A DNA stretch of 64,000 nt, taken from the IMG/VR virus record IMGVR_UViG_3300048625_000166. One strand, written 5' to 3'. The position numbers and the translations under genes are program-made. This document shows, piece after piece, positions 2,825 through 13,304 of this stretch; the first letter of the stretch is position 1, and the number at the start of each line of letters is the position of its first letter. This DNA is from a virus (lineage: Duplodnaviria; Heunggongvirae; Uroviricota; Caudoviricetes). Under the pieces are notes generated by a model that was not told the origin of the DNA, made no database searches, and saw only the letters and a list, made by a program, of their open reading frames with translations.

Positions 2825-3372
2825 GAGCAGAAGAATTCCTATTTGAGTTTGAATTACCAAAGAACAAATGGGAATTGGTAGTATCTAATGGTGATAAAGA
2901 AGAATTAGGTTCTGATTTAGTTTCTCTAGTTAGACATGCTTATAGTAATACTCCACACGGTAGTTTTGTAAACAGTATAAAAGATGTCATTCCAAGTGAT
3001 TGGAATGTCATTGATTGGGACCAAGATCCAGACGTTGATAGTTGTGTGTTCTATCGCAGTAATAGACCTACTGAAAATTGGACAGGATACAAGATTCAAG
3101 GAATCGGACATGATGGCTCACGTACTAGTAAAGATAAAGCAATAAATAAAGTACAAGAGCTACTGAGTAGACCAGGCGTTTGGATTGAATCAAGTGACGC
3201 AATGCGCCATTTATTGAAAAAATTAAATGTCCAGTCAATCAATGATGAGCAATTTTTACAACATCTATTTAATGATCCCAATCTAAAAATGGTCAGTGAC
3301 GACACATACACAAGAGCATTAAGTGGTGGTAATGTAACAGAGACAGTATTTGGATATCCTAAATTAAAATGA
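2821..3372 (+). CDS. hypothetical protein
   Basis: 183-aa ORF, ATGA coupling at both ends. Confidence 0.5.
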   Translation: MRAEEFLFEFELPKNKWELVVSNGDKEELGSDLVSLVRHAYSNTPHGSFVNSIKDVIPSDWNVIDWDQDPDVDSCVFYRSNRPTENWTGYKIQGIGHDGSRTSKDKAINKVQELLSRPGVWIESSDAMRHLLKKLNVQSINDEQFLQHLFNDPNLKMVSDDTYTRALSGGNVTETVFGYPKLK

Positions 3373-4562
3373 GAGCTACAGAATTTATCACAGAACGTAA
3401 CAACGGCACTCGCTGGACAGGCGATGAAATCTATCGTCAAATTGGTGATGAATGTCTCACTGAACTTTTCGAGCCAGGTAAGCCATTTGAATGGGATTTT
3501 CGTGGCAGTGAGGAGGCACATGCATCATTTACGATAGGCAATGTGCCATATAGATTTACTGCACATACCAACGGTGGTAATCAGTGGGAAATAGAATTCA
3601 AAGTAGATAAGAATACATCTGATAAGAACGCCAAGTATGGACGTACTGGCACTGGCAACTCAGCAGAAGTAATGTCAACAGTCACTGATATCATGCGCGA
3701 CTTTCTGGGCATGTACAAGGACAAAATTAAATATTTGACCTTCAGCGCGGAGGAAGAATCTAGAAAATCATTGTACATGAAAATGGCAAAGCGATTACTT
3801 CCTACATGGCGTCTCGGCAGTAACGATAAAATATATTGGTTAGCTAATCCAGATCATTTAGACGAAGGCGTAGTTGACTGGGCCAAGAAGGGTGCCGCGG
3901 CAGGTGCAATTGCACTCGGTGCATTAGGAGCTGGTGGTGCTGGAGCAAAGCAAATGCCACAACAAGTTCAAAAGCCTGCAGTTATTCAGCCTGCTAAAAA
4001 AGTTCAACCACAAGCACAGCAACAAACAAAAGCACCTGAGCAATTCAATGTGTTAAGTAACAACATTAACAACGAGATTACTCTACAAAGAGCCGCCAGA
4101 AAAGCAGGCATTAAGGGGCAAGAGTTAGCACAGTTTATGGCGCAAATGAAACACGAAAGCTGGGATTTTGAGCGCATGAAAGAGAAAGCACAACCAGGTG
4201 TAAAAGACTATTATGCCAAACGTTACGACTTAAAGTATTCACCAAAGACAGCGAAGATTTTAGGCAATAAACATGCGGGTGATGGCGCAAGATATCATGG
4301 TCGTGGTTTCGTTCAACTAACTGGCAGAGACAACTACAGAATGGCAAGTGATGCGTTGGGTATTGATCTATTGAATCACCCTGAACTAGCTAGTAAGCCA
4401 GATGTTGCCGCAAAAATAGCAGTATGGTATTGGAATACAAGAGTTAAGCCTAGTGTTCAAAACTTTGCAGATACTGTAGCAGTGACTAAGAAGATTAACC
4501 CAGCGGCAAGAGGTCTAGAGAATAGACACGAGAATTTTAAAGACTACATGAAAATAATATGA
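3369..4562 (+). CDS. two-domain protein with C-terminal GH19 (chitinase/lysozyme-like) glycoside hydrolase domain
   Basis: YHGRGFVQLTGRDNYR matches the GH19 signature; central Gly/Ala-rich hydrophobic stretch GAAAGAIALGALGAGGAGA followed by Gln/Pro/Lys linker. Confidence 0.7.
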   Translation: MRATEFITERNNGTRWTGDEIYRQIGDECLTELFEPGKPFEWDFRGSEEAHASFTIGNVPYRFTAHTNGGNQWEIEFKVDKNTSDKNAKYGRTGTGNSAEVMSTVTDIMRDFLGMYKDKIKYLTFSAEEESRKSLYMKMAKRLLPTWRLGSNDKIYWLANPDHLDEGVVDWAKKGAAAGAIALGALGAGGAGAKQMPQQVQKPAVIQPAKKVQPQAQQQTKAPEQFNVLSNNINNEITLQRAARKAGIKGQELAQFMAQMKHESWDFERMKEKAQPGVKDYYAKRYDLKYSPKTAKILGNKHAGDGARYHGRGFVQLTGRDNYRMASDALGIDLLNHPELASKPDVAAKIAVWYWNTRVKPSVQNFADTVAVTKKINPAARGLENRHENFKDYMKII

Positions 4563-5380
4563 TAAAAATTATAACAACAGCATTATTACTACTTGCTTCA
4601 ACCCAAACATTTGCATGGACACAGCGTCAACCGCTACCTGTTCAACAATGTCAAGTACACGCACCGTATGGATTTCCTAATACACAGGGTGTACAACCTC
4701 TATGCCAACAAGCATATCTAGTAGGATATGATGCGGCAGCCAAACTACCAAAATTTGTTACTTATGAATTACTTCCTCAAAACGCACTGGGATGTGTTGC
4801 TCGTACTAATGCTTTTGTCGCTAACCAGTTTGTGCCTGGTGGAGCTAGACCAGATGACTACACAGCGACTGGCTTTGACAAAGGCCATGCCGCACCAGAC
4901 GGTGACTTGTCATGGGACCAACAAGTAGAATATGAATCATTCTTGATGACTAACATGTATCCACAAAAGGGTTCATTGAATCGTGGTATTTGGAAATTAT
5001 TAGAAACTAGTGTACGTGGTTGGACAGTACAGCGCAATCAAAGCTATACAATTTATGTTGGTGGAATATACAATACAGCTACTGATAAGAAGATCGGCCA
5101 AGGTGTAGTTGTGCCAACAGCATTCTATAAGATCGTTATCAATAATCAAACTAAAGAGATTGCTGGTTGGGGATTCCCTCACGTTGAGCCATATCCTAAC
5201 TTAGGTAATGACTTAACTAAGTTCCGTGTTCCAGTTGCGACCCTAATGCAACAGGCCGGAGTTCAATATGCATTCCCACAAGGAGCAATCGAACTACAGC
5301 CTGGCAAAGAGTGGGCAGTTGACTTTGGCGCACTCACTAAAGCAAAACGCACCAAATGTGGCGCGAATGCAGAAGATTAA
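4559..5380 (+). CDS. secreted DNA/RNA non-specific endonuclease (Serratia NucA/EndoG family)
   Basis: N-terminal signal peptide MIKIITTALLLLASTQTFAW; GFDKGHAAPDGD resembles the DRGH active-site motif. Confidence 0.55.
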   Translation: MIKIITTALLLLASTQTFAWTQRQPLPVQQCQVHAPYGFPNTQGVQPLCQQAYLVGYDAAAKLPKFVTYELLPQNALGCVARTNAFVANQFVPGGARPDDYTATGFDKGHAAPDGDLSWDQQVEYESFLMTNMYPQKGSLNRGIWKLLETSVRGWTVQRNQSYTIYVGGIYNTATDKKIGQGVVVPTAFYKIVINNQTKEIAGWGFPHVEPYPNLGNDLTKFRVPVATLMQQAGVQYAFPQGAIELQPGKEWAVDFGALTKAKRTKCGANAED

Positions 5381-6105
5381 TTCTTAGTATAAACGAAGTA
5401 CAATCTATCGTTGGCATCTTTCTTGAAGGTGTCTAGCGTAAGATTGTACTTTTCAGCAAACTCATTCACGACTTCAAAACTCCAAGGGAAGATATCAACG
5501 TAGGGACCTGTCTTATGTGAGATGCCTGGATTAGCACGTAGATAAAACTTGCCACCCTTCTTTAAGAGATTGACACAATGCTCAAATCGTGCTTCAATCT
5601 CATCCTTGCTATTAAAGTTAATTGATCCAAGAGCCAGAATTACATCATGTGATTCTGGTTTTACTTTATACTCAAGAATATCAACTTCATAGTCGGCTTG
5701 ATTGTTATATGGGTCGATACCAATTAAGTTTTGAATGCGGCCCTTGAATGGGTGATAGCCACAGCCAACATCAAGTACCTTCTCTGGGTTTAGTTTGTTA
5801 ACTTCATCAGCAAGCTCCCACCCTGTATGCTCATAGTCACCTGTGCGTGGCTTCCAAATCTCTCCAAAGAAGCGCAGGATATATCGTTCGCTCAAATCAT
5901 CGACGATATCTTTCAATGTACCTACGTATTCGCATGGCAAGCTCAATTCGGCCTCTACAGCGTCTTTGAATTTGCGATAACGTGCAGGTGTCCATGGTAA
6001 GTCTTGCACAACGGTGTTTTCGTCAATGGAAATCTTTGCATACTTTGGTAAATTAAACGCAAGTTTCAAATTTTCGCTAACTAGTTTAAAAATTTTAGTG
6101 TTCAT
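5377..6105 (-). CDS. SAM-dependent methyltransferase
   Basis: Motif I VLDVGCGYHPFKG; start moved to internal ATG (MNTKIF...) because the track start is TTG; transcribed divergently from the Bug-like gene. Confidence 0.65.
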   Translation of the reverse strand: MNTKIFKLVSENLKLAFNLPKYAKISIDENTVVQDLPWTPARYRKFKDAVEAELSLPCEYVGTLKDIVDDLSERYILRFFGEIWKPRTGDYEHTGWELADEVNKLNPEKVLDVGCGYHPFKGRIQNLIGIDPYNNQADYEVDILEYKVKPESHDVILALGSINFNSKDEIEARFEHCVNLLKKGGKFYLRANPGISHKTGPYVDIFPWSFEVVNEFAEKYNLTLDTFKKDANDRLYFVYTKN

Positions 6106-6143
6106 AGTAATTTTTTCTAAAAAATATAAATTTCTTGGAAATT

Positions 6144-6151
6144 GTATAAAT
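6144..6151 (+). promoter_or_regulatory. T4-type late promoter TATAAATA (+)
   Basis: Exact TATAAATA 33 nt upstream of ATG 6185. Confidence 0.45.
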
Positions 6152-6163
6152 ATTCTTGTCGTC

Positions 6164-6171
6164 ATATTTAT
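6164..6171 (-). promoter_or_regulatory. T4-type late promoter TATAAATA (-)
   Basis: Forward TATTTATA is TATAAATA on the minus strand, about 58 nt upstream of the MTase ATG at 6105. Confidence 0.4.
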
Positions 6172-6184
6172 ATTAGGAGGAACG

Positions 6185-7165
6185 ATGAAAAAACTTTTAG
6201 CAACACTCACACTAGTTATATTACCTTTGTTCGCATTCGCATGGGAACCATCTAAGCCGGTGACTGTTATTGTGGGTAACACACCTGGAGCAGGCAACGA
6301 AATCGCATTTAGGAAACTAGCAGAGATTGTGCAGAAACAAAACCCAAAGTTTGTTTATGTCGTACAAAACATTCCAGGTGCTGATTCTGTGGTAGCAAAT
6401 AATAAGGTACTAGATGCTCCGACTGACGGCTATACAATCAATTTGCCAAGTCATATGAGTTCATACGTGACTAATGATATTTGGGAAAAGAAAGTTAAAA
6501 AGTATCAATGGGATAGTTTCATCGACGTACTTACAATGGGTAAGAGTCCTCTGGTATTGGTCGCTAGTACAAAAAGTAATGTTAACACGCCAATCGACTT
6601 CATTAGATATCTGCATACTTCTACAAAGCCGATTAATATCGCAGTAGGTGGTGGAGCACACAGAACAGCATATGAGTATTTGATGGAATCTGCACATGGT
6701 GACAAGAATCTAATCACCCACGTGAAGTTCAATGGTCCGATGCCAGCAGTGTCGAGCGTAGCACAATATGATGGTAAGACGGGTACAGAGTTCGGTATCA
6801 TACCAATTGCAGTTGCTCGTTCGTTGATTGATGCAGGTAAAGTTAAACCTATCGGATTCACTGGCACAAGACACATGCCGCAATACCCAGATGTTCCGTT
6901 ATTGAACACAGTAGCACCTGGGATTAACGTGTATGCCGCATGGTCAATTCAACTGCCACCTAACACTAACAAAGAGATTGTAGATTGGTATCAAAAAGCA
7001 TTTAGTACCGCAGTACGTAGTAAAGAATATGCAGAATGGTGCAAATTAAATGTAGTGTTCTATTCAGAAGACGAATTGACTCCGGTTGGTCTAAAGAAAC
7101 ACATGCAAGAATTACGCACAACGTTCTTACCTGTACTAAGTAAGATAGACTTATCTAAGGAATAA
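6185..7165 (+). CDS. Bug/TctC-family periplasmic solute-binding protein (tripartite tricarboxylate transporter receptor-like)
   Basis: Signal peptide MKKLLATLTLVILPLFAFA; PSKP...IVGNTPGAGNEIAFRKLA...NIPGADSVVANNKVLDAPTDGYT...GKSPLVLVAS aligns with BugD/TctC hallmarks; real ATG with AGGAGG RBS. Confidence 0.65.
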   Translation: MKKLLATLTLVILPLFAFAWEPSKPVTVIVGNTPGAGNEIAFRKLAEIVQKQNPKFVYVVQNIPGADSVVANNKVLDAPTDGYTINLPSHMSSYVTNDIWEKKVKKYQWDSFIDVLTMGKSPLVLVASTKSNVNTPIDFIRYLHTSTKPINIAVGGGAHRTAYEYLMESAHGDKNLITHVKFNGPMPAVSSVAQYDGKTGTEFGIIPIAVARSLIDAGKVKPIGFTGTRHMPQYPDVPLLNTVAPGINVYAAWSIQLPPNTNKEIVDWYQKAFSTAVRSKEYAEWCKLNVVFYSEDELTPVGLKKHMQELRTTFLPVLSKIDLSKE

Positions 7166-7167
7166 AA

Positions 7168-7794
7168 TTGAAGTATATCTTTGTAGCTGGTGCTCCAGGC
7201 AGTAAATGGAGCAGTGTCGTAAAGAACATTTATTATAGTCCTAGTATTGACCACAGTGATTATAGTGATGAACGTACTTACTATCACGATGCTAGTGGTG
7301 AAATGCAGTTAATGCATTTAGGTGCATATTTTGATCCAGGAATGGAATTCTCGTTACCAGAATCAATGTCAACACTTACAAAGGCGCAAGCAGAAGAAAG
7401 ATTTGATGCACCATTTTCAGGCGAAGGTGTTCGCATCATCAAGAGTCACATCTTTTGTTATCAAGAGAATATCGAGTACTTACGTGAGTTGTGGCCTGAA
7501 TGCCCAATCGTAACTGTGCTTAGACCTAATGACAGTTGTTTAGGATGGTGGGTACGATGTGGTCATTTCGACATTACATATCCCATCTACGAGCCTTACT
7601 ACAAAGACTTAAAGACAATGGCTAAAATCATTGACAAGCAAAACTATGAACTTGAAGAATGTACGTTTAGAAACAAAGCAACCAGAGTTTACAACAACAC
7701 TAGACTTGCAATGATTCTCGGCATCCAATCGCCACCTGATGAATATCGCCACAGCTACATTGACAATGATATCACAGTAAGCGTAATACTATGA
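7168..7794 (+). CDS. sulfotransferase-fold P-loop protein (putative PAPS-dependent sulfotransferase)
   Basis: TTG start with AAGGA RBS; GAPGSKWSS resembles the 5'-PSB loop (PKSGTTW); RIIKSH resembles the catalytic K-x-H of cytosolic sulfotransferases. Confidence 0.45.
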   Translation: MKYIFVAGAPGSKWSSVVKNIYYSPSIDHSDYSDERTYYHDASGEMQLMHLGAYFDPGMEFSLPESMSTLTKAQAEERFDAPFSGEGVRIIKSHIFCYQENIEYLRELWPECPIVTVLRPNDSCLGWWVRCGHFDITYPIYEPYYKDLKTMAKIIDKQNYELEECTFRNKATRVYNNTRLAMILGIQSPPDEYRHSYIDNDITVSVIL

Positions 7795-8423
7795 AACAAA
7801 TGTTAATCATTACCGGGCCACAAGGGTCTGGTAATCACGTTTTCAGCAAAATCTTTGCGTTACATAACGAAGTATATGGCTGGAAAGACTTACTTAATGA
7901 ATATTGGATAGCACATGATTATGAACCATTTAGTGATTGTTGGGATATGCCTAGCTTACTTAATAGCATTGACTGGACAAACATGGATAATTACGTCACT
8001 AGTATCAGTTGCCCATATGCAAACGAAGGAGTGGCTACAATCCCTCGGTACAAAGATTTCATCAGTGCATTAACTCAACTTGGTATCACTGTTAAAGTCT
8101 GTATCATTGGTAGAGACCAAACTATCCTTAGACACCAGCAACAAAGAGTAAGAGATAGACACAGTTTACCTGATTTCGAAGGTGAACTAGAATTTTTAAA
8201 TTCACTAGAGCCAATATATCTAAGTACAGAGTTGTTATATTTGTACAAAGACTATTATTTAAAGAGTTTGAGTAAAATCTTAGACTTCCCTATAGCATAT
8301 GATGACCCTAGAGTGTTTGAAATATTGAAACAAGATGCAAACGAGAAATACTTTCAGAGTATTCCTCAACAAGAGTTAGACAAAACAGTCCGCAAAGTTA
8401 GCGGACTAAAGGAAAAAGAATGA
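7791..8423 (+). CDS. P-loop protein, second sulfotransferase-like paralog
   Basis: ITGPQGSGNHVFSKIF P-loop; CIIGRDQT resembles a 3'-PB motif; ATGA coupled. Confidence 0.35.
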   Translation: MKQMLIITGPQGSGNHVFSKIFALHNEVYGWKDLLNEYWIAHDYEPFSDCWDMPSLLNSIDWTNMDNYVTSISCPYANEGVATIPRYKDFISALTQLGITVKVCIIGRDQTILRHQQQRVRDRHSLPDFEGELEFLNSLEPIYLSTELLYLYKDYYLKSLSKILDFPIAYDDPRVFEILKQDANEKYFQSIPQQELDKTVRKVSGLKEKE

Positions 8424-9112
8424 TTAGTAACTGGGAAACAACAAAAGCAAAAAGCAAATATCACTTTGATAATTTTAAGAATGATCCAACCATGGACAAA
8501 GTTGAAGTATTAGGGCGAATTACAGGCGACTGGTCGCATGAAGTACAGGATATTATTGCTAACAGCAAACCTGCAACTTGGGAAACACGTGGATACAAAG
8601 GCGAAGGTGTTATGCCACCACGTGAAGATTTGATTGCAGAAGAATACGACTTAGAGAAAACTGGTTACGGAAAAGACCACCAGATAACACACTTAAACTG
8701 GAATGTTCCAGACAAGTTAAAAAAGATTACTGAAATGTTTGGTCTAGATGACTGCATGGAACGTATTCACGTGCAGATGCCAGGCGAAGTTTGGAATCTT
8801 CATATCGACAAACTAAACAAATGGTGCCCAGAAGAACCATGGAAAGTAATGCGTGTTATGATTCACTTGACTGATTGGGAACAAGGTCACTTCTGGTCGT
8901 ATGGCAATCACGTTCATACGCAATGGCATGCAGGTGATGTTACTACATTTGATTGGCAAAACTTGCCTCATTCTACTGCTAATGCAGGACATAATCCACG
9001 TGTTACGTTTCAGTTAACTGGTGTTGTAACACCCAAAACGCTTGATTTTCTTGCTAGGCTAAAACGGTTTAACACGATACAATTAGAGTACAAAAATGAG
9101 TCTTGGTTCTAA
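8420..9112 (+). CDS. hypothetical protein, possible cupin / Fe(II)-2OG oxygenase-like
   Basis: HxD (NLHID) followed about 45 aa later by a His cluster (HVHTQWHAGD); ATGA coupled. Confidence 0.3.
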   Translation: MISNWETTKAKSKYHFDNFKNDPTMDKVEVLGRITGDWSHEVQDIIANSKPATWETRGYKGEGVMPPREDLIAEEYDLEKTGYGKDHQITHLNWNVPDKLKKITEMFGLDDCMERIHVQMPGEVWNLHIDKLNKWCPEEPWKVMRVMIHLTDWEQGHFWSYGNHVHTQWHAGDVTTFDWQNLPHSTANAGHNPRVTFQLTGVVTPKTLDFLARLKRFNTIQLEYKNESWF

Positions 9113-9539
9113 ACGTATATTAATCATGGGTCTTCCTGGTTCAGGTAAGACTACCCTAGCGGACGCACTGGAAGAACGGTTCAATTTACGTAACAAAAAG
9201 GTTATTAGGTTGAATGCTGATAAGATACGTGAAGAATACGATGACTGGGATTTTACTACTGAGGGTAGATTGCGTCAAAGTAAGCGTATGTGTGAATTAG
9301 CTAGTAGAATCGAATGTGACTATGTTATAGCTGATTTTGTGTGTCCACTTGTGGAAATGCGTAATAATTTTGCTCCAGACCATCTTATATGGATGGACAC
9401 CATCAGATCCAGTGAATATGAAGACACTAATCAAATGTTTGTTCGACCAGAGAAGTGCACCTTCAGATTGATAGAAAAAGATGCTAAAAAATGGAGTGAG
9501 TACCTGGCGATAAATATAATAAAGCTAGATAGCTTGTAA
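9096..9539 (+). CDS. adenylylsulfate (APS) kinase-like P-loop kinase
   Basis: ILIMGLPGSGKTTLADAL Walker A; LNADKIRE...DFTTEGRLRQSKRM parallels CysC LDGDNVRH...GFSDADRKENIRRV. Confidence 0.5.
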   Translation: MSLGSKRILIMGLPGSGKTTLADALEERFNLRNKKVIRLNADKIREEYDDWDFTTEGRLRQSKRMCELASRIECDYVIADFVCPLVEMRNNFAPDHLIWMDTIRSSEYEDTNQMFVRPEKCTFRLIEKDAKKWSEYLAINIIKLDSL

Positions 9540-9540
9540 G

Positions 9541-9654
9541 AACCCACCTTAGGGCCCGTTGTCGTAACGGTTAGAGCAATGCTCAGGCGTCCGCGCTAAT
9601 GAACTGCACCGCGTAGTGTGCCCCGTATAAAGTAAGCGGGATGATAAATACATA
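9541..9654 (+). other. GC-rich structured intergenic element (candidate small RNA or regulatory structure)
   Basis: GC content sharply above flanks; local hairpins CCGTT-gtcgt-AACGG and CCCG-N11-CGGG; no tRNA cloverleaf found. Confidence 0.3.
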
Positions 9655-10233
9655 ATGCGTTCCTATCAAATCATAAACGAGTCCCCTGCTACCGAATTGG
9701 CCAAGAAATTGCCATCTCTCCAAAAGCACGACTATGACACCATCGATACCCTGATGCGTAAAATCTCACAGCGTCATCGTATAACTGGTAAGCACTTACA
9801 TGACTTGTTTGTTAAGCAATATGGAAAAACTCCAGATAACTGGATCAAAGACGATCTATCTGAAGGTGATTCTTCGGAATTAGACATTGATGCGGAAGTT
9901 CAGAAGTTTATCAAATGGGCCGCAAGACGCCTACATCTACAAACTACACCACATATTGAACTGAGCCAAGATACCAAAGACGCACAGGACAATCATCACA
10001 CAGGACTACATCGTACTGACACTGGTGAAATCTGGATTTACGTAAAGAATCGCAATTTAGTTGATATCTTGCGTACTGTGTTTCATGAGTTGGTACATCA
10101 TCGTCAAGGTGAGTTAAAGATGATTAAGCCAGGTGATAGCTATCCTGGTAGTCCAATCGAAGCAATGGCAGACATGTTGGCTGGTAAATACATCAAGATT
10201 TACGGCGAACAAAACCATCACATCTTCCAGTAA
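9655..10233 (+). CDS. zincin-like metallopeptidase-motif protein
   Basis: HExxH motif VFHELVHHRQGE. Confidence 0.4.
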   Translation: MRSYQIINESPATELAKKLPSLQKHDYDTIDTLMRKISQRHRITGKHLHDLFVKQYGKTPDNWIKDDLSEGDSSELDIDAEVQKFIKWAARRLHLQTTPHIELSQDTKDAQDNHHTGLHRTDTGEIWIYVKNRNLVDILRTVFHELVHHRQGELKMIKPGDSYPGSPIEAMADMLAGKYIKIYGEQNHHIFQ

Positions 10234-10332: not shown

Positions 10333-10599
10333 ATGTCAGATTATAACCGCTCATTCAATGGCGATGCCAAAATTAAATTAACTCAATTGGTCAACGAAGG
10401 TATGACAGTCTTGCACGAGATTGACACCCTTCAAGGCGGATTGAACGATACGATCAAGGCAGTCGCAGAAGAATTGGAAATCAAACCAGGCACTCTCAAG
10501 AAAGCAATCAAGATTGCACACAAGGCAAGCCTGGGTCAAACAAATAAAGACCACGACGAATTGAACACTATTTTGGAAACTGTAGGTAAGACACTTTGA
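10333..10599 (+). CDS. hypothetical protein
   Basis: 88 aa from internal ATG with AAGGAG RBS. Confidence 0.5.
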   Translation: MSDYNRSFNGDAKIKLTQLVNEGMTVLHEIDTLQGGLNDTIKAVAEELEIKPGTLKKAIKIAHKASLGQTNKDHDELNTILETVGKTL

Positions 10600-13304
10600 G
10601 CTACGTTGATGCCATTCATAGCAGGGATGAGGATCGCATCTACGTGGTAGAGCGTCAGTCAGATGGCCGACGCACCTACAATGAATTCCCTGCTAACTAC
10701 GTTCTATACTACGACGATCCTAAAGGAAAGCAACGTAGCATCTTTAACACACCTGTATCTCGATTCAGTACCCGCAAGCGTAAAGAGTTTGAAACTGAAA
10801 AGAGAATTCACTCTAACAAGCAATTGTACGAGAGTGATGTTAACGTTGTGTTCCGTTGCCTAGCCGATAATTATTTAGGTGTTGATGCTCCAAAACTTCA
10901 CACTTGCTTTTTCGACATTGAAGTAGACTTTGATCCTATCAAAGGGTTTAGTCCTACTAGTGATCCATTCAACCCTGTGACAGCTATCAGTTGTTATCTA
11001 GACTGGATGGACACTTGTTTCACGTTGGTTATTGCTCCAAAGCATATGACCAAAGAAACAGCAACTGAAATCATTGGTGAATTTGAGAATACAATCTTGT
11101 TTGACAACGAGAAGGACATGTTCGATGTGTTCTTTCAGTTAATCGAAGACGCCGACGTTCTAACAGGCTGGAACTCAGAAGGCTATGATATTCCATACAT
11201 GGTCAATCGTGTTACACGTGTTATGTCTAAAGATGATACACGTAAATTCTGTTTGCTTGGACAACTTCCTAAGCCAAGAGAGTATGAACGTTTCGGTAAA
11301 GTCGAATTGACGTATGACTTAGTTGGTCGCATTCACCTAGACTATTTGCAACTCTACAAAAAGTATAACTATGAATCTCGTCATAGCTATAAGCTCGATG
11401 CCATCGGTGAGATGGAAGTCGGCGAGAACAAAACCCAATACGAGGGCACTCTTGATCAGTTATATAACAAAGACTTTAAAAAGTTTATTGAATATAACAG
11501 ACAAGATACGATGTTGTTGGTTAAGATCCACAACAAATTGAAGTTCCTTGATCTAGCCAATGCGCTGGCTCATGAGAACACTGTATTGTTACCTACTGTA
11601 ATGGGCTCCGTTGCCATGATTGAAATGGCAATTTTAAACGAAGCTCATGAAAGAGGTTTAGTTGTTCCAGATAAAAAACGAAAGGTAGAAAATGCAGAAG
11701 ACATTCAATCAGCGGCAGGTGCCTATGTTGCTACTCCCAAAAGGGGCCTCCACGAATGGGTTGGTGCAGTCGATATCAACTCACTCTACCCGTCAACGAT
11801 CCGCGCTCTTAACATGGCACCAGAGACCATCGTTGCACAAGTCAGACAAACACTTACCGATCAATACATGAGAGAACGCGGTGCCAAACTGGCCCGTGAA
11901 AAGAAGTATTACAAAGATGGTGACGATGACGTTACAGGCGCAATCTTGTGGGAAGGATTGTTTGGTGCTCTAGAGTACACAGCAATCATGAACCAAGAAC
12001 GTGGTACTATCTTAACTGTAGACTACGAAGATGGTCGCAGTGTAGAAATGAGTGCCGCCGAGATTTGGAAGATGGTCTTTGATAGCCATAAGCCATGGAT
12101 GTTAAGTGCAAACGGTACAATTTTTACGTATGAGAAAGAGGGTGTAATTCCTGGTCTACTTACACGTTGGTATACTGAACGTAAATCAATTCAGAAACAG
12201 GCAAAAGAAGCGTATGGTACTGATATGTATGAATACTATGACAAACGCCAGCTTGTTCGTAAGATTTTGCTTAACTCTGCATACGGCGCACTGTTGAATG
12301 AACATTGTCGTTTCTATGATAAGCGCATTGGTCAATCAGTTACTCTATCTGGTCGTCAGATTGTTAAGCACATGATGAGTACAATCAATGAAACAGTTGA
12401 GGGTAAGTATACTCATGAAGGTGAAGCTATCGTTTATGGCGATACTGACTCATGTTACTTTAGTGCATATGCAACCTTAAAACCACAGATTGATGCGGGT
12501 GACTTAGAATGGAACAAAGATATTTGTATTGGTCTCTATGACGGCATTGCTGATCAAGCTAACAATACTTTCCCTTCGTTCTTAGAGAAAGCGTTCCATG
12601 CTCCTCGCAAGAATGGTGAGATCATCAAAGCTGGTCGTGAATTGATTGGTGATCGTAGTATCTTTATCACTAAGAAGCGTTATGCTATCAACATCTTTGA
12701 CAAAGAAGGCAAGCGTAAAGACAAAGACGGAGCATTGGGTGATATCAAAGCCATGGGTCTAGACTTGAAACGTGCAGATACTCCAAAGTATGTGCAAGAA
12801 TTCTTGATGGATGTACTTGAAATGGTACTACAACGAGGCAAGGGTAGTGAAGAAGTCATTGAACGAGTGCGAGAATTTAAACGAGTTATGGTATCTCAAG
12901 ATAGTTGGACAAAGGGTTCACCTAAATCCGTTAACAACTTGACCAAGCATACACAAGCGTTTGAAAAGACTGGTACTTGTAAAGTGGGTCACGCACGTGC
13001 CGCTATTAACTGGAATTATTTGCGACGAGTCCATGGAGATAACTACTCTATGCAAATTGTAGACGGCATGAAGATTGTTGTTTGCAAACTCAAGCCAAAT
13101 GCATTGGGTTTTAACTCAATTGCATATCCAGTTGACGAACTCAGACTTCCAGAATGGTTTAAAGAATTGCCATTCGATGATGACGAGATGGAAAAGACAC
13201 TGGTCGACGAAAAGATTGATAACTTGTTAGGTGTTCTGAATTGGGACATTAAGAGTAATATCGACGTTAAATCGACATTCGCCGAATTGTTCTCATTCGG
13301 TTAA
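10596..13304 (+). CDS. 43: family B DNA polymerase (T4 gp43-like)
   Basis: FDNEKDM...TGWN.EG.D.PY..NRV exo motifs; SLYPS.IR; KILLNSAYGAL; YGDTDS; KKRYA; only possible start is TTG 10596 (AGGTAAG SD, stop TAA in frame just upstream). Confidence 0.95.
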   Translation: MSYVDAIHSRDEDRIYVVERQSDGRRTYNEFPANYVLYYDDPKGKQRSIFNTPVSRFSTRKRKEFETEKRIHSNKQLYESDVNVVFRCLADNYLGVDAPKLHTCFFDIEVDFDPIKGFSPTSDPFNPVTAISCYLDWMDTCFTLVIAPKHMTKETATEIIGEFENTILFDNEKDMFDVFFQLIEDADVLTGWNSEGYDIPYMVNRVTRVMSKDDTRKFCLLGQLPKPREYERFGKVELTYDLVGRIHLDYLQLYKKYNYESRHSYKLDAIGEMEVGENKTQYEGTLDQLYNKDFKKFIEYNRQDTMLLVKIHNKLKFLDLANALAHENTVLLPTVMGSVAMIEMAILNEAHERGLVVPDKKRKVENAEDIQSAAGAYVATPKRGLHEWVGAVDINSLYPSTIRALNMAPETIVAQVRQTLTDQYMRERGAKLAREKKYYKDGDDDVTGAILWEGLFGALEYTAIMNQERGTILTVDYEDGRSVEMSAAEIWKMVFDSHKPWMLSANGTIFTYEKEGVIPGLLTRWYTERKSIQKQAKEAYGTDMYEYYDKRQLVRKILLNSAYGALLNEHCRFYDKRIGQSVTLSGRQIVKHMMSTINETVEGKYTHEGEAIVYGDTDSCYFSAYATLKPQIDAGDLEWNKDICIGLYDGIADQANNTFPSFLEKAFHAPRKNGEIIKAGRELIGDRSIFITKKRYAINIFDKEGKRKDKDGALGDIKAMGLDLKRADTPKYVQEFLMDVLEMVLQRGKGSEEVIERVREFKRVMVSQDSWTKGSPKSVNNLTKHTQAFEKTGTCKVGHARAAINWNYLRRVHGDNYSMQIVDGMKIVVCKLKPNALGFNSIAYPVDELRLPEWFKELPFDDDEMEKTLVDEKIDNLLGVLNWDIKSNIDVKSTFAELFSFG

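What the first reader, a model, noticed from the sequence alone, without database searches (positions are those of the whole stretch)
6106..9539. Late-promoter operon: Bug/TctC-type periplasmic binding protein plus two sulfotransferase-fold proteins, a cupin-like protein and an APS-kinase-like protein (candidate phage sulfation module)
Five genes (6185..9539) are tightly coupled (3-nt gap, ATGA overlaps, 17-nt overlap). They sit behind an exact T4-type late promoter, with a second TATAAATA on the opposite strand driving a SAM methyltransferase. Gene 1 has a signal peptide and aligns with Bug/TctC hallmarks (PSKP, PGAG, APTDGYT, SPLVLV). Genes 2 and 3 carry P-loops resembling the sulfotransferase 5'-PSB loop, and gene 2 has a K-S-H resembling the catalytic K-x-H of cytosolic sulfotransferases. 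Gene 5 resembles CysC APS kinase, which would make PAPS from host APS. A PAPS-generating kinase next to putative sulfotransferases and a periplasmic ligand-binding protein is not a known T4-like module. Late timing suggests modification of a virion component, a surface glycan or a small molecule.
Basis: partly seen in the sequence, partly recalled or inferred. Interest (0 to 1): 0.8.

Follow-up and report, generated by a model that had tools for sequence, protein, structure and literature searches.

The report
Jumbo-phage solute-uptake and sulfation-like enzyme cassette
An uncultivated giant phage carries a conserved operon pairing an exported nutrient-binding protein with sulfotransferase-shaped enzymes, an iron oxygenase and an APS-kinase-like kinase, so it probably imports and chemically tags a small molecule, but sulfation itself is unproven.

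Summary

The cassette is conserved in more than 80 viral contigs of a jumbo-phage clade with no cultured member. In 46 well-flanked loci the methyltransferase, gene 2 and gene 4 occur in all 46. TctC occurs in 36, gene 3 in 29 and the kinase in 19. In some relatives TctA plus an outer-membrane barrel replace TctC. In most relatives the kinase is fused to an NMNAT/PPAT-like nucleotidyltransferase.

The best reading is an uptake-and-tailoring pathway, probably hydroxylation followed by PAPS-type sulfation (confidence about 0.4). The substrate and the donor remain unknown.

The parts
5377..6105 (-). Class I SAM-dependent methyltransferase (242 aa), divergently transcribed. It is part of the universal core of the cassette.
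   Evidence: Pfam gives only weak matches to Methyltransf_25/11/23. It is present in 46 of 46 well-flanked related loci. It is 62-95% identical across relatives, about as conserved as the DNA polymerase.
6145..6152 (+). TATAAATA box, 33 nt upstream of the g1 ATG
   Evidence: Position relative to gene starts is non-random. An NATAAATA box is kept at this position in close relatives.
6165..6172 (-). TATAAATA box on the opposite strand, 60 nt upstream of the methyltransferase ATG. It is interleaved with the + strand box.
   Evidence: That the two transcripts start back to back near 6158/6159 is my inference from T4 promoter spacing.
6185..7165 (+). g1: exported TctC/Bug-type periplasmic solute-binding protein (326 aa). 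The N-terminus MKKLLATLTLVILPLFAFA|WE reads as a signal peptide.
   Evidence: PF03401 E 2.7e-19, 70.2 bits against a cut-off of 27, covering profile positions 2-238 of 274. It is present in 36 of 46 loci. Relatives fall into two identity classes, about 75-80% and about 35-50%.
7168..7794 (+). g2: minimal (208 aa) sulfotransferase-fold protein with a TTG start. Universal core gene.
7791..8423 (+). g3: second minimal (210 aa) sulfotransferase-fold protein, not detectably homologous to g2 by sequence. Accessory gene.
8420..9112 (+). g4: Fe(II)/2-oxoglutarate-oxygenase-like (cupin/DSBH) protein (230 aa). Universal core gene.
   Evidence: H128 is invariant, and D130, H184 and R194 are 90% or more conserved, across 92 representatives at 26-54% identity. 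9 of 92 relatives match PF05118 Asp_Arg_Hydrox, 3 match Cupin_2 and 1 each matches 2OG-FeII_Oxy_3 and PhyH. The C-terminus aligns weakly with AtsK, placing H184 and R194 on its metal and 2OG residues. Present in 46 of 46 loci.
9096..9539 (+). g5: APS-kinase-family P-loop kinase, the short form (147 aa) without the nucleotidyltransferase domain found in most relatives
   Evidence: PF01583 scores 44.7 bits against a cut-off of 21.1, but covers only profile positions 4-91 of 152. NCBIfam CysC models fall far below their cut-offs. PDB APS kinases match at E 2.8e-6 to 1e-4 over residues 8-94. phrog_10255 'kinase' matches at 4.5e-28. The MAFFT alignment with E. coli CysC shows a 16-residue lid gap. 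Present in 19 of 46 loci and always inside the cassette.
9540..9654 (+). Conserved GC-rich noncoding spacer that closes the operon, with a hairpin just before the NATAAATA-like box of the next gene
   Evidence: 52% GC against 41% for the window, and 90% identical over 113 nt in L008. Alignment and RNAalifold give 21 pairs, 4 of them with compensatory changes. No Rfam or tRNA hit.

Best explanation
This is a vertically inherited metabolic cassette of an uncultivated clade of roughly 350-kb jumbo phages.

Proposed mechanism:
1. A T4-like TATAAATA promoter drives one translationally coupled operon.
2. Its first product is exported to the periplasm as a TctC/Bug-type binding protein. It captures an organic anion, either a carboxylate or a sulfonate/sulfate ester, and delivers it to a tripartite tricarboxylate (TTT) permease. 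In this phage the permease would be the host's. Some relatives encode their own TctA and an outer-membrane barrel.
3. In the cytoplasm the solute, or a metabolite derived from it, is oxidised by the Fe(II)/2-oxoglutarate oxygenase-like g4.
4. The product is then modified by the sulfotransferase-fold proteins g2 and g3. The most likely reaction is O-sulfation from PAPS or a PAPS-like 3'-phosphoadenylyl donor.
5. The APS-kinase-family kinase g5 makes that donor, here from host APS.
6. The neighbouring, equally conserved SAM methyltransferase probably acts in the same pathway.

Shown here: the gene identities at fold or family level, the operon structure, the promoter motif and the conserved linkage. 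Inferred: the direction of flux, the substrate, sulfate as the group transferred, PAPS formation and late timing.
For: - Operon structure and promoter.
- TctC family with a signal peptide.
- In relatives that lack g1, the same slot holds a full-length TctA (PF01970, E 3.6e-85), an OMP beta-barrel-like protein and a secreted TctC-like protein. This argues that the slot encodes uptake.
- For both g2 and g3 the best structural matches are sulfotransferases, ahead of all kinases. Relatives of g2 match PF13469.
- g3 has no Walker lysine: GPQGSGNH is invariant. g2 has no canonical GK[ST]. Both features argue against ordinary kinases.
- g4 keeps an HxD...H...R triad across a diverse family of 695 representatives.
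- g5 passes the Pfam APS_kinase threshold. It keeps the acceptor-side motif (D-x-x-R, F, R) that aligns with CysC, APE1195 and PAPSS1.
- Linkage in 46 well-flanked loci: methyltransferase 46, g4 46, g1 36, g3 29, g5 19. The kinase always lies inside the cassette, although gene order varies.
- g2 and g4 are 52-93% identical where the DNA polymerase is 71-89% identical.
- No hit to defence-system models.
Against: - No substrate or product is known.
- Both sulfotransferase-fold proteins have Gly where the catalytic 5'-PSB Lys/Arg sits. Both also lack the 3'-PB Ser, which is Gly in g2 and Gln in g3. This mapping onto TPST/SULT motifs is from my own knowledge, not from a tool.
- No member passes a sulfotransferase Pfam gathering score.
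- g5 fails every NCBIfam CysC cut-off and lacks the DPKGLYKKARAGELRN lid segment.
- In most relatives, and in Xylella, Stenotrophomonas and Ralstonia phages that show no sulfotransferase neighbours, the kinase is fused to an NMNAT/PPAT-like domain or sits beside one. In Xylella phage Bacata it lies next to a NADAR gene.
- The kinase is absent from 27 of 46 loci.
- The fold of g4 was not modelled.
- Genes on one operon can still have separate functions.
Confidence: 0.4

Rival explanations
1. The architecture is the same, but the chemistry is not sulfation. The kinase, with the fused NMNAT/PPAT-like nucleotidyltransferase in most relatives, builds a different 3'-phospho-adenylyl compound (ATP + X-phosphate gives AMP-X, then 3'-phospho-AMP-X, as in CoA or PAPS synthesis). 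The sulfotransferase-fold proteins then transfer X. Alternatively they are atypical kinases acting on the imported solute.
For: The kinase-nucleotidyltransferase fusion, with GRWQPWHAGH...ISATKIR, occurs in about 18 of 25 cassette kinases. The closest families of the nucleotidyltransferase domain are NMN adenylyltransferase and PPAT, not ATP sulfurylase. The PSB and 3'-PB residues of g2 and g3 are non-canonical. The g2 loop GAPGS-KWS resembles an NMP-kinase P-loop with one residue deleted, and UMP/CMP kinases rank second in Foldseek.
Confidence: 0.2
2. The enzymes modify a macromolecule and not an imported solute. Examples would be Tyr-sulfation plus Asp/Asn hydroxylation and methylation of a virion protein or secreted peptide (RaxST-like), or hydroxylation and sulfation of LPS (LpxO/KdoO-like). 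TctC would then be a separate co-transcribed function.
For: The best structural matches of g2, and the next-best matches of g3 after the OLS ST domain, are protein-tyrosine sulfotransferases. Relatives of g4 match the Asp/Asn beta-hydroxylase family PF05118, which also holds LpxO and KdoO (family content is from my own knowledge). The TATAAATA promoter suggests expression alongside late genes.
Confidence: 0.15
3. The cassette scavenges organosulfur. The binding protein imports a sulfonate or sulfate ester. The TauD/AtsK-like dioxygenase releases sulfite or sulfate. The sulfotransferase-fold protein and the kinase feed sulfur into host assimilation, for example by reverse sulfotransfer to PAP or by APS to PAPS conversion for CysH.
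For: The only PDB sequence similarity of g4 is to the 2OG-dependent alkylsulfatase AtsK, aligning H184 and R194. 'Binding protein plus 2OG dioxygenase' mirrors the tauABCD and atsK-atsRBC systems (my own knowledge). Freshwater large phages carry transcribed cysC-annotated genes that have been read as assimilation genes (PMC10914622).
Against: The AtsK match is not significant (E 0.14-0.9), and relatives match PF05118 better. No cysH, cysD or cysN was seen in the cassette. Universal, polymerase-like conservation of g2 and g4 is unusual for a nutrient-scavenging accessory gene.
Confidence: 0.12
4. The cassette salvages NAD or another cofactor. A Bug27-like binding protein imports a pyridine carboxylate, and the kinase-NMNAT fusion rebuilds NAD(P), perhaps to counter NAD-depleting host defences.
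For: The nucleotidyltransferase domain is closest to NadM-type NMNAT. In Xylella phage Bacata the homologous fusion lies next to a NADAR gene. Some Bug proteins bind nicotinate (my own knowledge).
Against: The universal genes g2, g4 and the methyltransferase have no role in NAD salvage. The kinase is optional, and in this window it lacks the NMNAT-like domain. The kinase scores best against APS kinase (44.7 bits), not against the NadR-type AAA_28 family (22.2 bits).
Confidence: 0.08

Closest known systems
Dedicated bacterial sulfation systems: NodP/NodQ + NodH (Sinorhizobium) and RaxP/RaxQ + RaxST (Xanthomonas oryzae)
   Same: An APS-kinase-family gene is linked to sulfotransferase-fold genes, giving private donor supply plus transfer. 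The fold of g2 and g3 is closest to the TPST/PF13469 clade. RaxST belongs with the tyrosine sulfotransferases, to my knowledge.
Phage cysC / cysH auxiliary metabolic genes (freshwater large phages, PMC10914622; organosulfur AMG surveys)
   Same: g5 would be called cysC by Pfam- or KEGG-style pipelines, because it passes the PF01583 gathering score. cysC-encoding phages were reported to have larger genomes and to be transcribed in lakes.
   Different: Here the kinase is not a CysC equivalog. It sits inside a cassette with sulfotransferase-fold genes and not with cysH. In most relatives it is fused to an NMNAT/PPAT-like domain. That points to donor synthesis for a transfer reaction and not to sulfate assimilation.
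Tripartite tricarboxylate transporters (TctABC; Bordetella Bug proteins), with cyanophage PstS as the precedent for a phage-encoded binding protein
   Same: g1 is a bona fide PF03401 member with a signal peptide. Relatives encode a full TctA.
   Different: It is encoded by a lytic-type jumbo phage and translationally coupled to cytoplasmic enzymes. No TctA or TctB was found next to it in this window. The ligand is unknown. The protein diverges much faster than its neighbours, 35-51% identity against 60-93%.
Bifunctional PAPS synthase (ATP sulfurylase + APS kinase) and CoA synthase (PPAT + dephospho-CoA kinase)
   Same: In relatives, the g5 homologue combines an HxGH/ISxT nucleotidyltransferase domain with a kinase related to those that phosphorylate the adenosine 3'-OH.
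   Different: The nucleotidyltransferase domain is only about 112 aa and is closest to NMNAT, not to ATP sulfurylase. Its activity is untested, and the domain is absent from this window.
TauD/AtsK and AspH/LpxO-type Fe(II)/2OG oxygenases
   Same: The HxD...H...R motif is conserved. There are weak matches to AtsK and to PF05118.
   Different: No match passes a curated threshold. The protein is only 230 aa. The fold was not modelled here.
Activating sulfotransferases (CurM/OLS ST domain, SgdX2)
   Different: No thioesterase or PKS context is present. Structural similarity alone does not show that sulfate serves as a leaving group here.

Membership tests
TctC/Bug periplasmic solute-binding proteins (PF03401) | Score above the Pfam gathering threshold over most of the domain | tested here: met
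   70.2 bits against 27, E 2.7e-19, profile positions 2-238 of 274
TctC/Bug periplasmic solute-binding proteins (PF03401) | N-terminal export signal | tested here: met
   MKKLLATLTLVILPLFAFA|WEPSKP was read directly from the translation. No signal-peptide predictor was available. Relatives start in the same way.
TctC/Bug periplasmic solute-binding proteins (PF03401) | Cognate TctA/TctB membrane components | tested here: inconclusive
   None lies adjacent in the window. Relatives that lack g1 encode TctA at the same position (PF01970, E 3.6e-85). The rest of the 364-kb genome and the host were not searched.
PAPS-dependent sulfotransferases (PF13469 / PF00685) | Sequence score above the curated family threshold | tested here: not met
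   g2 and g3 have no hit. The best relative of g2 scores 25.6 bits against a cut-off of 27, and 23 of 35 relatives match at E of 1 or less.
PAPS-dependent sulfotransferases (PF13469 / PF00685) | Sulfotransferase fold | tested here: met
PAPS-dependent sulfotransferases (PF13469 / PF00685) | 5'-PSB loop with the catalytic Lys/Arg (PKSGTT / PRSGTT) | tested here: not met
   The g2 loop is A-P-G-S-K-W-S-S and the g3 loop is P-Q-G-S-G-N-H, both invariant. Gly occupies the Lys/Arg position. g2 has a Lys two residues later. The mapping onto reference motifs is from my own knowledge.
PAPS-dependent sulfotransferases (PF13469 / PF00685) | 3'-PB motif: Arg at the end of the strand, plus Ser about 8 residues later | tested here: inconclusive
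   The Arg is invariant in both proteins (g2 R119; g3 R108, followed by D109). The Ser position is Gly/Trp in g2 and Gln in g3.
PAPS-dependent sulfotransferases (PF13469 / PF00685) | Catalytic base (His of K-x-H, or Glu) | tested here: inconclusive
   In g2, K92-S93-H94 are invariant. g3 has S-I-S-C-P-Y at the equivalent strand, with no Lys or His.
Adenylyl-sulfate (APS) kinase CysC (PF01583; TIGR00455) | Curated family thresholds | tested here: inconclusive
   The Pfam gathering score is met (44.7 against 21.1), but only over profile positions 4-91 of 152. The NCBIfam equivalog and subfamily cut-offs are not met: 41.3 against 138.7, and 44.4 against 127.
Adenylyl-sulfate (APS) kinase CysC (PF01583; TIGR00455) | Walker A loop plus the acceptor-side motifs (LDGD-x-x-R; F-S-x-x-x-R-x-x-N) | tested here: met
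   g5 has GLPGSGKTT, L-N-A-D-K-I-R and D-F-T-T-E-G-R-L-R-Q. These align with APE1195, PAPSS1 and E. coli CysC. The D, R, F and R residues are kept throughout the family, while the first Asp is Asn and the Asn is Gln.
Adenylyl-sulfate (APS) kinase CysC (PF01583; TIGR00455) | Lid segment (DPKGLYKKARAGE...FTGID) | tested here: not met
   In the MAFFT alignment every g5-family member has a 16-residue gap opposite E. coli CysC DPKGLYKKARAGELRN.
Adenylyl-sulfate (APS) kinase CysC (PF01583; TIGR00455) | Phosphorylation of APS to PAPS | not testable with these tools
   This needs an enzyme assay.
Fe(II)/2-oxoglutarate-dependent oxygenases (cupin/DSBH) | HxD/E...H metal triad plus a basic residue for the 2OG C5 carboxylate | tested here: met
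   H128 is invariant. D130, H184 and R194 are 90% or more conserved in 92 representatives at 26-54% identity.
Fe(II)/2-oxoglutarate-dependent oxygenases (cupin/DSBH) | Family-level sequence or fold match | tested here: inconclusive
   g4 itself has no Pfam hit. 9 of 92 relatives match PF05118 (best E 2.6e-4) and a few match Cupin_2, 2OG-FeII_Oxy_3 or PhyH. The AtsK match has E 0.14.
T4-type late promoter | TATAAATA box at a suitable distance upstream of genes, more often than chance | tested here: met
   The box is exact on both strands. Its position relative to gene starts is enriched. A related NATAAATA box is kept in relatives.
T4-type late promoter | gp55/gp33-type late transcription factors, and late timing | not tested
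   Only 64 kb of a roughly 364-kb genome is available, and no search for gp55 was run. Timing needs transcriptomics.

The most novel reading that the evidence does not exclude
A large clade of uncultivated jumbo phages carries a self-contained uptake-plus-activation-plus-transfer pathway. It would combine phage-encoded TTT transport components with a minimal PAPS-synthase-like bifunctional enzyme (NMNAT-like nucleotidyltransferase plus lid-less APS-kinase-like domain). That enzyme would make a 3'-phosphoadenylyl donor, possibly not PAPS. Stripped-down sulfotransferase-fold enzymes lacking the canonical PSB lysine and 3'-PB serine would use it. This would be a new donor/transferase chemistry, or a new minimal route to PAPS, used by the phage to make a modified metabolite during infection.
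Probability: 0.15. Interest if true: 0.85.

Novelty: new variant of a known kind. Interest (0 to 1): 0.62.

Why it matters
Phage 'cysC' genes are currently read as sulfate-assimilation helpers. In this clade the cysC-like kinase belongs to a conserved cassette with sulfotransferase-fold enzymes, an oxygenase, a methyltransferase and phage-encoded TTT uptake proteins. That points to synthesis of a modified, probably sulfated, molecule during infection. If this is confirmed, it would add a new class of phage-directed metabolism. It would give the first functional context for phage-borne TctC and TctA. It would also supply very small sulfotransferase-fold and APS-kinase-like enzymes with non-canonical active-site loops for enzymology. 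The family is abundant: 3752 g2 homologues in metagenomes and 348 viral contigs. It is essentially absent from bacterial genomes, with 2 hits in 185,579 species genomes. Its role is therefore ecologically relevant and phage-specific.

Tried and rejected
- Nucleotide searches of the operon against 50,697 phage records found nothing.
- tblastn of g3 and g4 against phages found nothing. g2 hit only two unannotated marine single-cell virus contigs at 30% identity.
- Direct Pfam, NCBIfam and PHROG scans of g2, g3 and g4 gave no usable hit.
- PDB sequence and profile searches for g2, g3 and g4 gave nothing significant.
- I tested whether g2 and g3 are paralogues. BLASTP and hhalign found no support (probability 0.4%).
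- I tested whether the 'cysteine dioxygenase' of Xylella phage Bacata is a g4 homologue. It is not.
- I searched for the nucleotidyltransferase domain elsewhere in the window. It is absent.
- I checked the GC-rich spacer after g5 as a possible tRNA or known RNA. ARAGORN and Rfam found nothing, and the single-sequence fold z-score is -0.04.
- I considered a defence or anti-defence system. PADLOC gave only generic P-loop and methyltransferase matches.
- I looked for names in source databases. All entries are 'hypothetical protein'.
- I looked for bacterial homologues with informative context. There were only two phage-like contigs, both in one Haliscomenobacter MAG.
- Literature searches for a phage TctC/sulfotransferase module found no description.
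- I considered DNA hypermodification (methyltransferase + oxygenase + kinase next to the DNA polymerase). I rate it unlikely, for three reasons. g4 relatives gave no TET/JBP match in the Pfam scans. The methyltransferase matches only generic class I families, not DNA methyltransferase families. An uptake system would be unexplained. I could not exclude it.

Full report
**Origin of the window.** The window comes from an uncultivated jumbo phage. Its family-B DNA polymerase (10596-13304) is at most 48% identical to any annotated phage. The nearest are Sinorhizobium phage Phosso, Agrobacterium phage Atu_ph07 and the RaK2 group. The exact g2 protein occurs on a 364-kb JGI contig.

**Observation.** There are two small corrections. 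The gap between g1 and g2 is 2 nt, not 3, and g2 starts with TTG.

The number of TATAAATA sites in the window is not significant: 6 against 3.15 expected. Their placement is significant. Using the true starts of g1 and the methyltransferase, all six lie 5-64 nt upstream of a co-oriented gene start. Only 8% of positions qualify by chance. Even with a crude gene caller that mis-calls those two starts, 4 of 6 qualify (P = 5e-4). For NATAAATA, 8 of 12 qualify. Close relatives keep an NATAAATA box at the same place on both strands.

The two boxes are interleaved. By T4 spacing both transcripts would start near 6158/6159, back to back. That is my inference. 'Late' timing is also only an analogy with T4.

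**Gene identities.**
- **g1** is a TctC/Bug binding protein (PF03401, E 2.7e-19) with a classical signal peptide.
- **g2 and g3** have no family hit of their own and are not detectably related to each other.
  - Their AlphaFold models are confident, with pLDDT 88.8 and 85.6.
  - Foldseek also puts a sulfotransferase first for g2, but weakly, and mixes in NMP kinases.
  - 23 of 35 close relatives of g2 match PF13469. The best score is 25.6 bits against a cut-off of 27. The match covers the segment with the invariant K-S-H and the strand-Arg motif.
  - Neither protein has a canonical Walker A. g3 has GPQGSGNH, with no lysine.
  - Neither has the canonical sulfotransferase signature either. Gly replaces the 5'-PSB Lys/Arg. 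The 3'-PB Ser is Gly in g2 and Gln in g3, while the 3'-PB Arg is invariant. The motif mapping is from my own knowledge.
  - So 'sulfotransferase fold' is supported, and 'PAPS-dependent sulfotransferase' remains open.
- **g4** has no hit itself. A library-wide profile search found 695 representatives. Across 92 of them, at 26-54% identity, H128 is invariant and D130, H184 and R194 are 90% or more conserved. Nine match the Asp/Asn beta-hydroxylase family PF05118. A few match Cupin_2, 2OG-FeII_Oxy_3 or PhyH. The only PDB similarity is a weak C-terminal match to the 2OG-dependent alkylsulfatase AtsK, which aligns H184 and R194. The protein is therefore a cupin-type Fe(II)/2OG oxygenase-like enzyme. 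Its subfamily is unresolved.
- **g5** passes the Pfam APS_kinase threshold, but only over profile positions 4-91 of 152. It falls far below all NCBIfam CysC cut-offs. It aligns with solved APS kinases over residues 8-94. Aligned with E. coli CysC, the whole g5 family keeps the P-loop and the acceptor-side D..R / F / R motif. It lacks the 16-residue lid segment DPKGLYKKARAGELRN.

**Conservation and context.**
- g2 has 3752 homologues in metagenomes, g3 has 1442 and g4 has 1575.
- 348 IMG/VR contigs encode g2. Only two contigs among 185,579 species genomes do, both in one MAG.
- In 46 loci with at least 4 kb on both sides of g2, the divergent methyltransferase and g4 are present in all 46. g1 is present in 36, g3 in 29 and g5 in 19. 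The kinase always lies inside the cassette, although gene order varies.
- The methyltransferase is as conserved as the DNA polymerase. g2 and g4 are somewhat less conserved. g1 diverges much faster, at 35-51% identity in most relatives.
- Where g1 is missing, the slot holds a full-length TctA (PF01970, E 3.6e-85), an OMP beta-barrel-like protein and a secreted TctC-like protein. This is the strongest argument that the slot encodes solute uptake.
- Other optional members are a Peptidase_C26/class I amidotransferase, a ferritin-like di-iron protein, a cupin and a GDSL-like hydrolase. There are also further proteins with P-loop-like N-termini.
- In about 18 of the 25 cassettes that contain it, the kinase is a 262-304-aa fusion. 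The C-terminal domain is a nucleotidyltransferase of about 112 aa (GRWQPWHAGH...ISATKIR). Its closest families are NadM-type NMNAT and PPAT.
- The same fusion occurs in Xylella and Stenotrophomonas phages, without sulfotransferase neighbours. In Xylella phage Bacata it lies next to a NADAR gene. Ralstonia phages carry shorter homologues (143 aa in RsoM2USA).
- The window's g5 is the short form, and the nucleotidyltransferase domain is nowhere else in the 64 kb.
- A conserved GC-rich spacer with a covarying hairpin closes the operon.

**Mechanism.** The most economical reading has four steps. A periplasmic binding protein captures an anion. A TTT permease imports it. The oxygenase-like enzyme modifies it, and then the sulfotransferase-fold enzymes do. 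A donor made by the APS-kinase-family kinase supplies the transferred group. In this phage the likely route is host APS to PAPS. I give this 0.4.

The main rival (0.2) keeps the architecture but changes the chemistry. The fusion with an NMNAT/PPAT-like domain and the non-canonical loops allow a different 3'-phosphoadenylyl donor, or kinase-like activity. The other rivals are:
- macromolecule modification, based on the TPST-like and AspH/LpxO-like resemblances (0.15);
- organosulfur scavenging, based on the AtsK/TauD-like resemblance (0.12);
- NAD or cofactor salvage (0.08).

No known defence system matches.

**Comparison with known systems.** The closest functional analogues are NodPQ/NodH and RaxPQ/RaxST, which pair dedicated PAPS supply with a sulfotransferase. 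Phage 'cysC' auxiliary genes are also close. Freshwater phages with cysC were reported to be larger and transcriptionally active, and were interpreted as assimilation helpers (PMC10914622).

The cassette differs from all of these in four ways:
- its linkage to TTT uptake proteins, an oxygenase and a methyltransferase;
- the small size and non-canonical loops of the transferases;
- the lid-less kinase;
- the nucleotidyltransferase fusion in relatives.

I found no description of such a module in the searchable literature.

**Verdict.** The cassette is a new variant of known kinds, namely phage auxiliary metabolism and dedicated sulfation systems. It is abundant, phage-specific and biochemically uncharacterised. 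Interest is 0.62.

Noticed in passing
window 9540-9654: A GC-rich (52% against 41%) noncoding spacer follows g5. It is 90% conserved over 113 nt in L008 and partly conserved in L049, L009 and L047. It contains a covarying hairpin just before an NATAAATA-like box and the next ATG. There is no Rfam or tRNA match. It could be a terminator, a processing site or a regulatory RNA.
   Followed up: partly
L086:3258-4709, L085:784-1374, L085:1390-2451 (also L029, L033, L076-L080): Relatives without the TctC gene carry three genes at the same position: a full-length TctA permease (PF01970, E 3.6e-85), a small OMP beta-barrel-like protein with a signal peptide, and a 353-aa secreted protein with a TctC-like PGGGTD motif. 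This amounts to phage-encoded envelope-spanning uptake components.
   Followed up: partly
L034, L051, L063, L066 and others (g5 homologues); L001:4998-5738; L003:4998-5729: The APS-kinase-like domain is usually fused to an NMNAT/PPAT-like nucleotidyltransferase of about 112 aa (GRWQPWHAGH...ISATKIR). The same fusion occurs in Xylella and Stenotrophomonas siphophages. In Xylella phage Bacata it lies next to a NADAR gene. The architecture recalls PAPS synthase and CoA synthase.
   Followed up: partly
window 4559-5380 and 3369-4562: A DNA/RNA non-specific endonuclease (PF01223, E 5.9e-38) has an apparent signal peptide (MIKIITTALLLLASTQTFA). It overlaps the stop of a 397-aa protein whose C-terminus is glycoside hydrolase family 19 (E 1.7e-13). 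Both are conserved upstream of the cassette in many relatives.
   Followed up: no
window 9655-10233: The gene after the cassette encodes a 192-aa protein with an HExxH motif (VFHELVHH). It has weak Tox-MPTase3 and phrog_10346 matches. It is conserved downstream of the cassette in 41 loci. It may be a zinc metallopeptidase.
   Followed up: no
window 6145-6172: The two TATAAATA boxes on opposite strands are interleaved and not back to back. By T4 spacing both transcripts would start at about the same base pair (about 6158/6159), and each box would lie in the 5' leader of the other transcript.
   Followed up: partly
L004:7053-7628, L076:199-894, L051:8900-9778, L065:1-615, L083:10747-11946, L080:2459-3139, L004:4621-5304: The cassette has optional members in relatives: a Peptidase_C26/class I amidotransferase (28 loci), a ferritin-like di-iron protein (20 loci), a GDSL-like hydrolase and a Cupin_2 protein. 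Three further families have P-loop/PSB-like N-termini (ILTPDAVGSTLL, YYPGCSGRF, YIGGHGGFF) and no Pfam hit.
   Followed up: partly
L089, L090: The only g2 homologues among 185,579 species-representative genomes are two different phage-like contigs, both binned into one Haliscomenobacter sp. MAG. This is a weak and possibly artefactual host hint.
   Followed up: no
window 6185-7165 against the related loci: TctC identities to the window protein fall into two classes, about 75-80% and about 35-50%, independently of how similar g2, g4 and the polymerase are. This suggests replacement or rapid diversification of the binding protein.
   Followed up: partly
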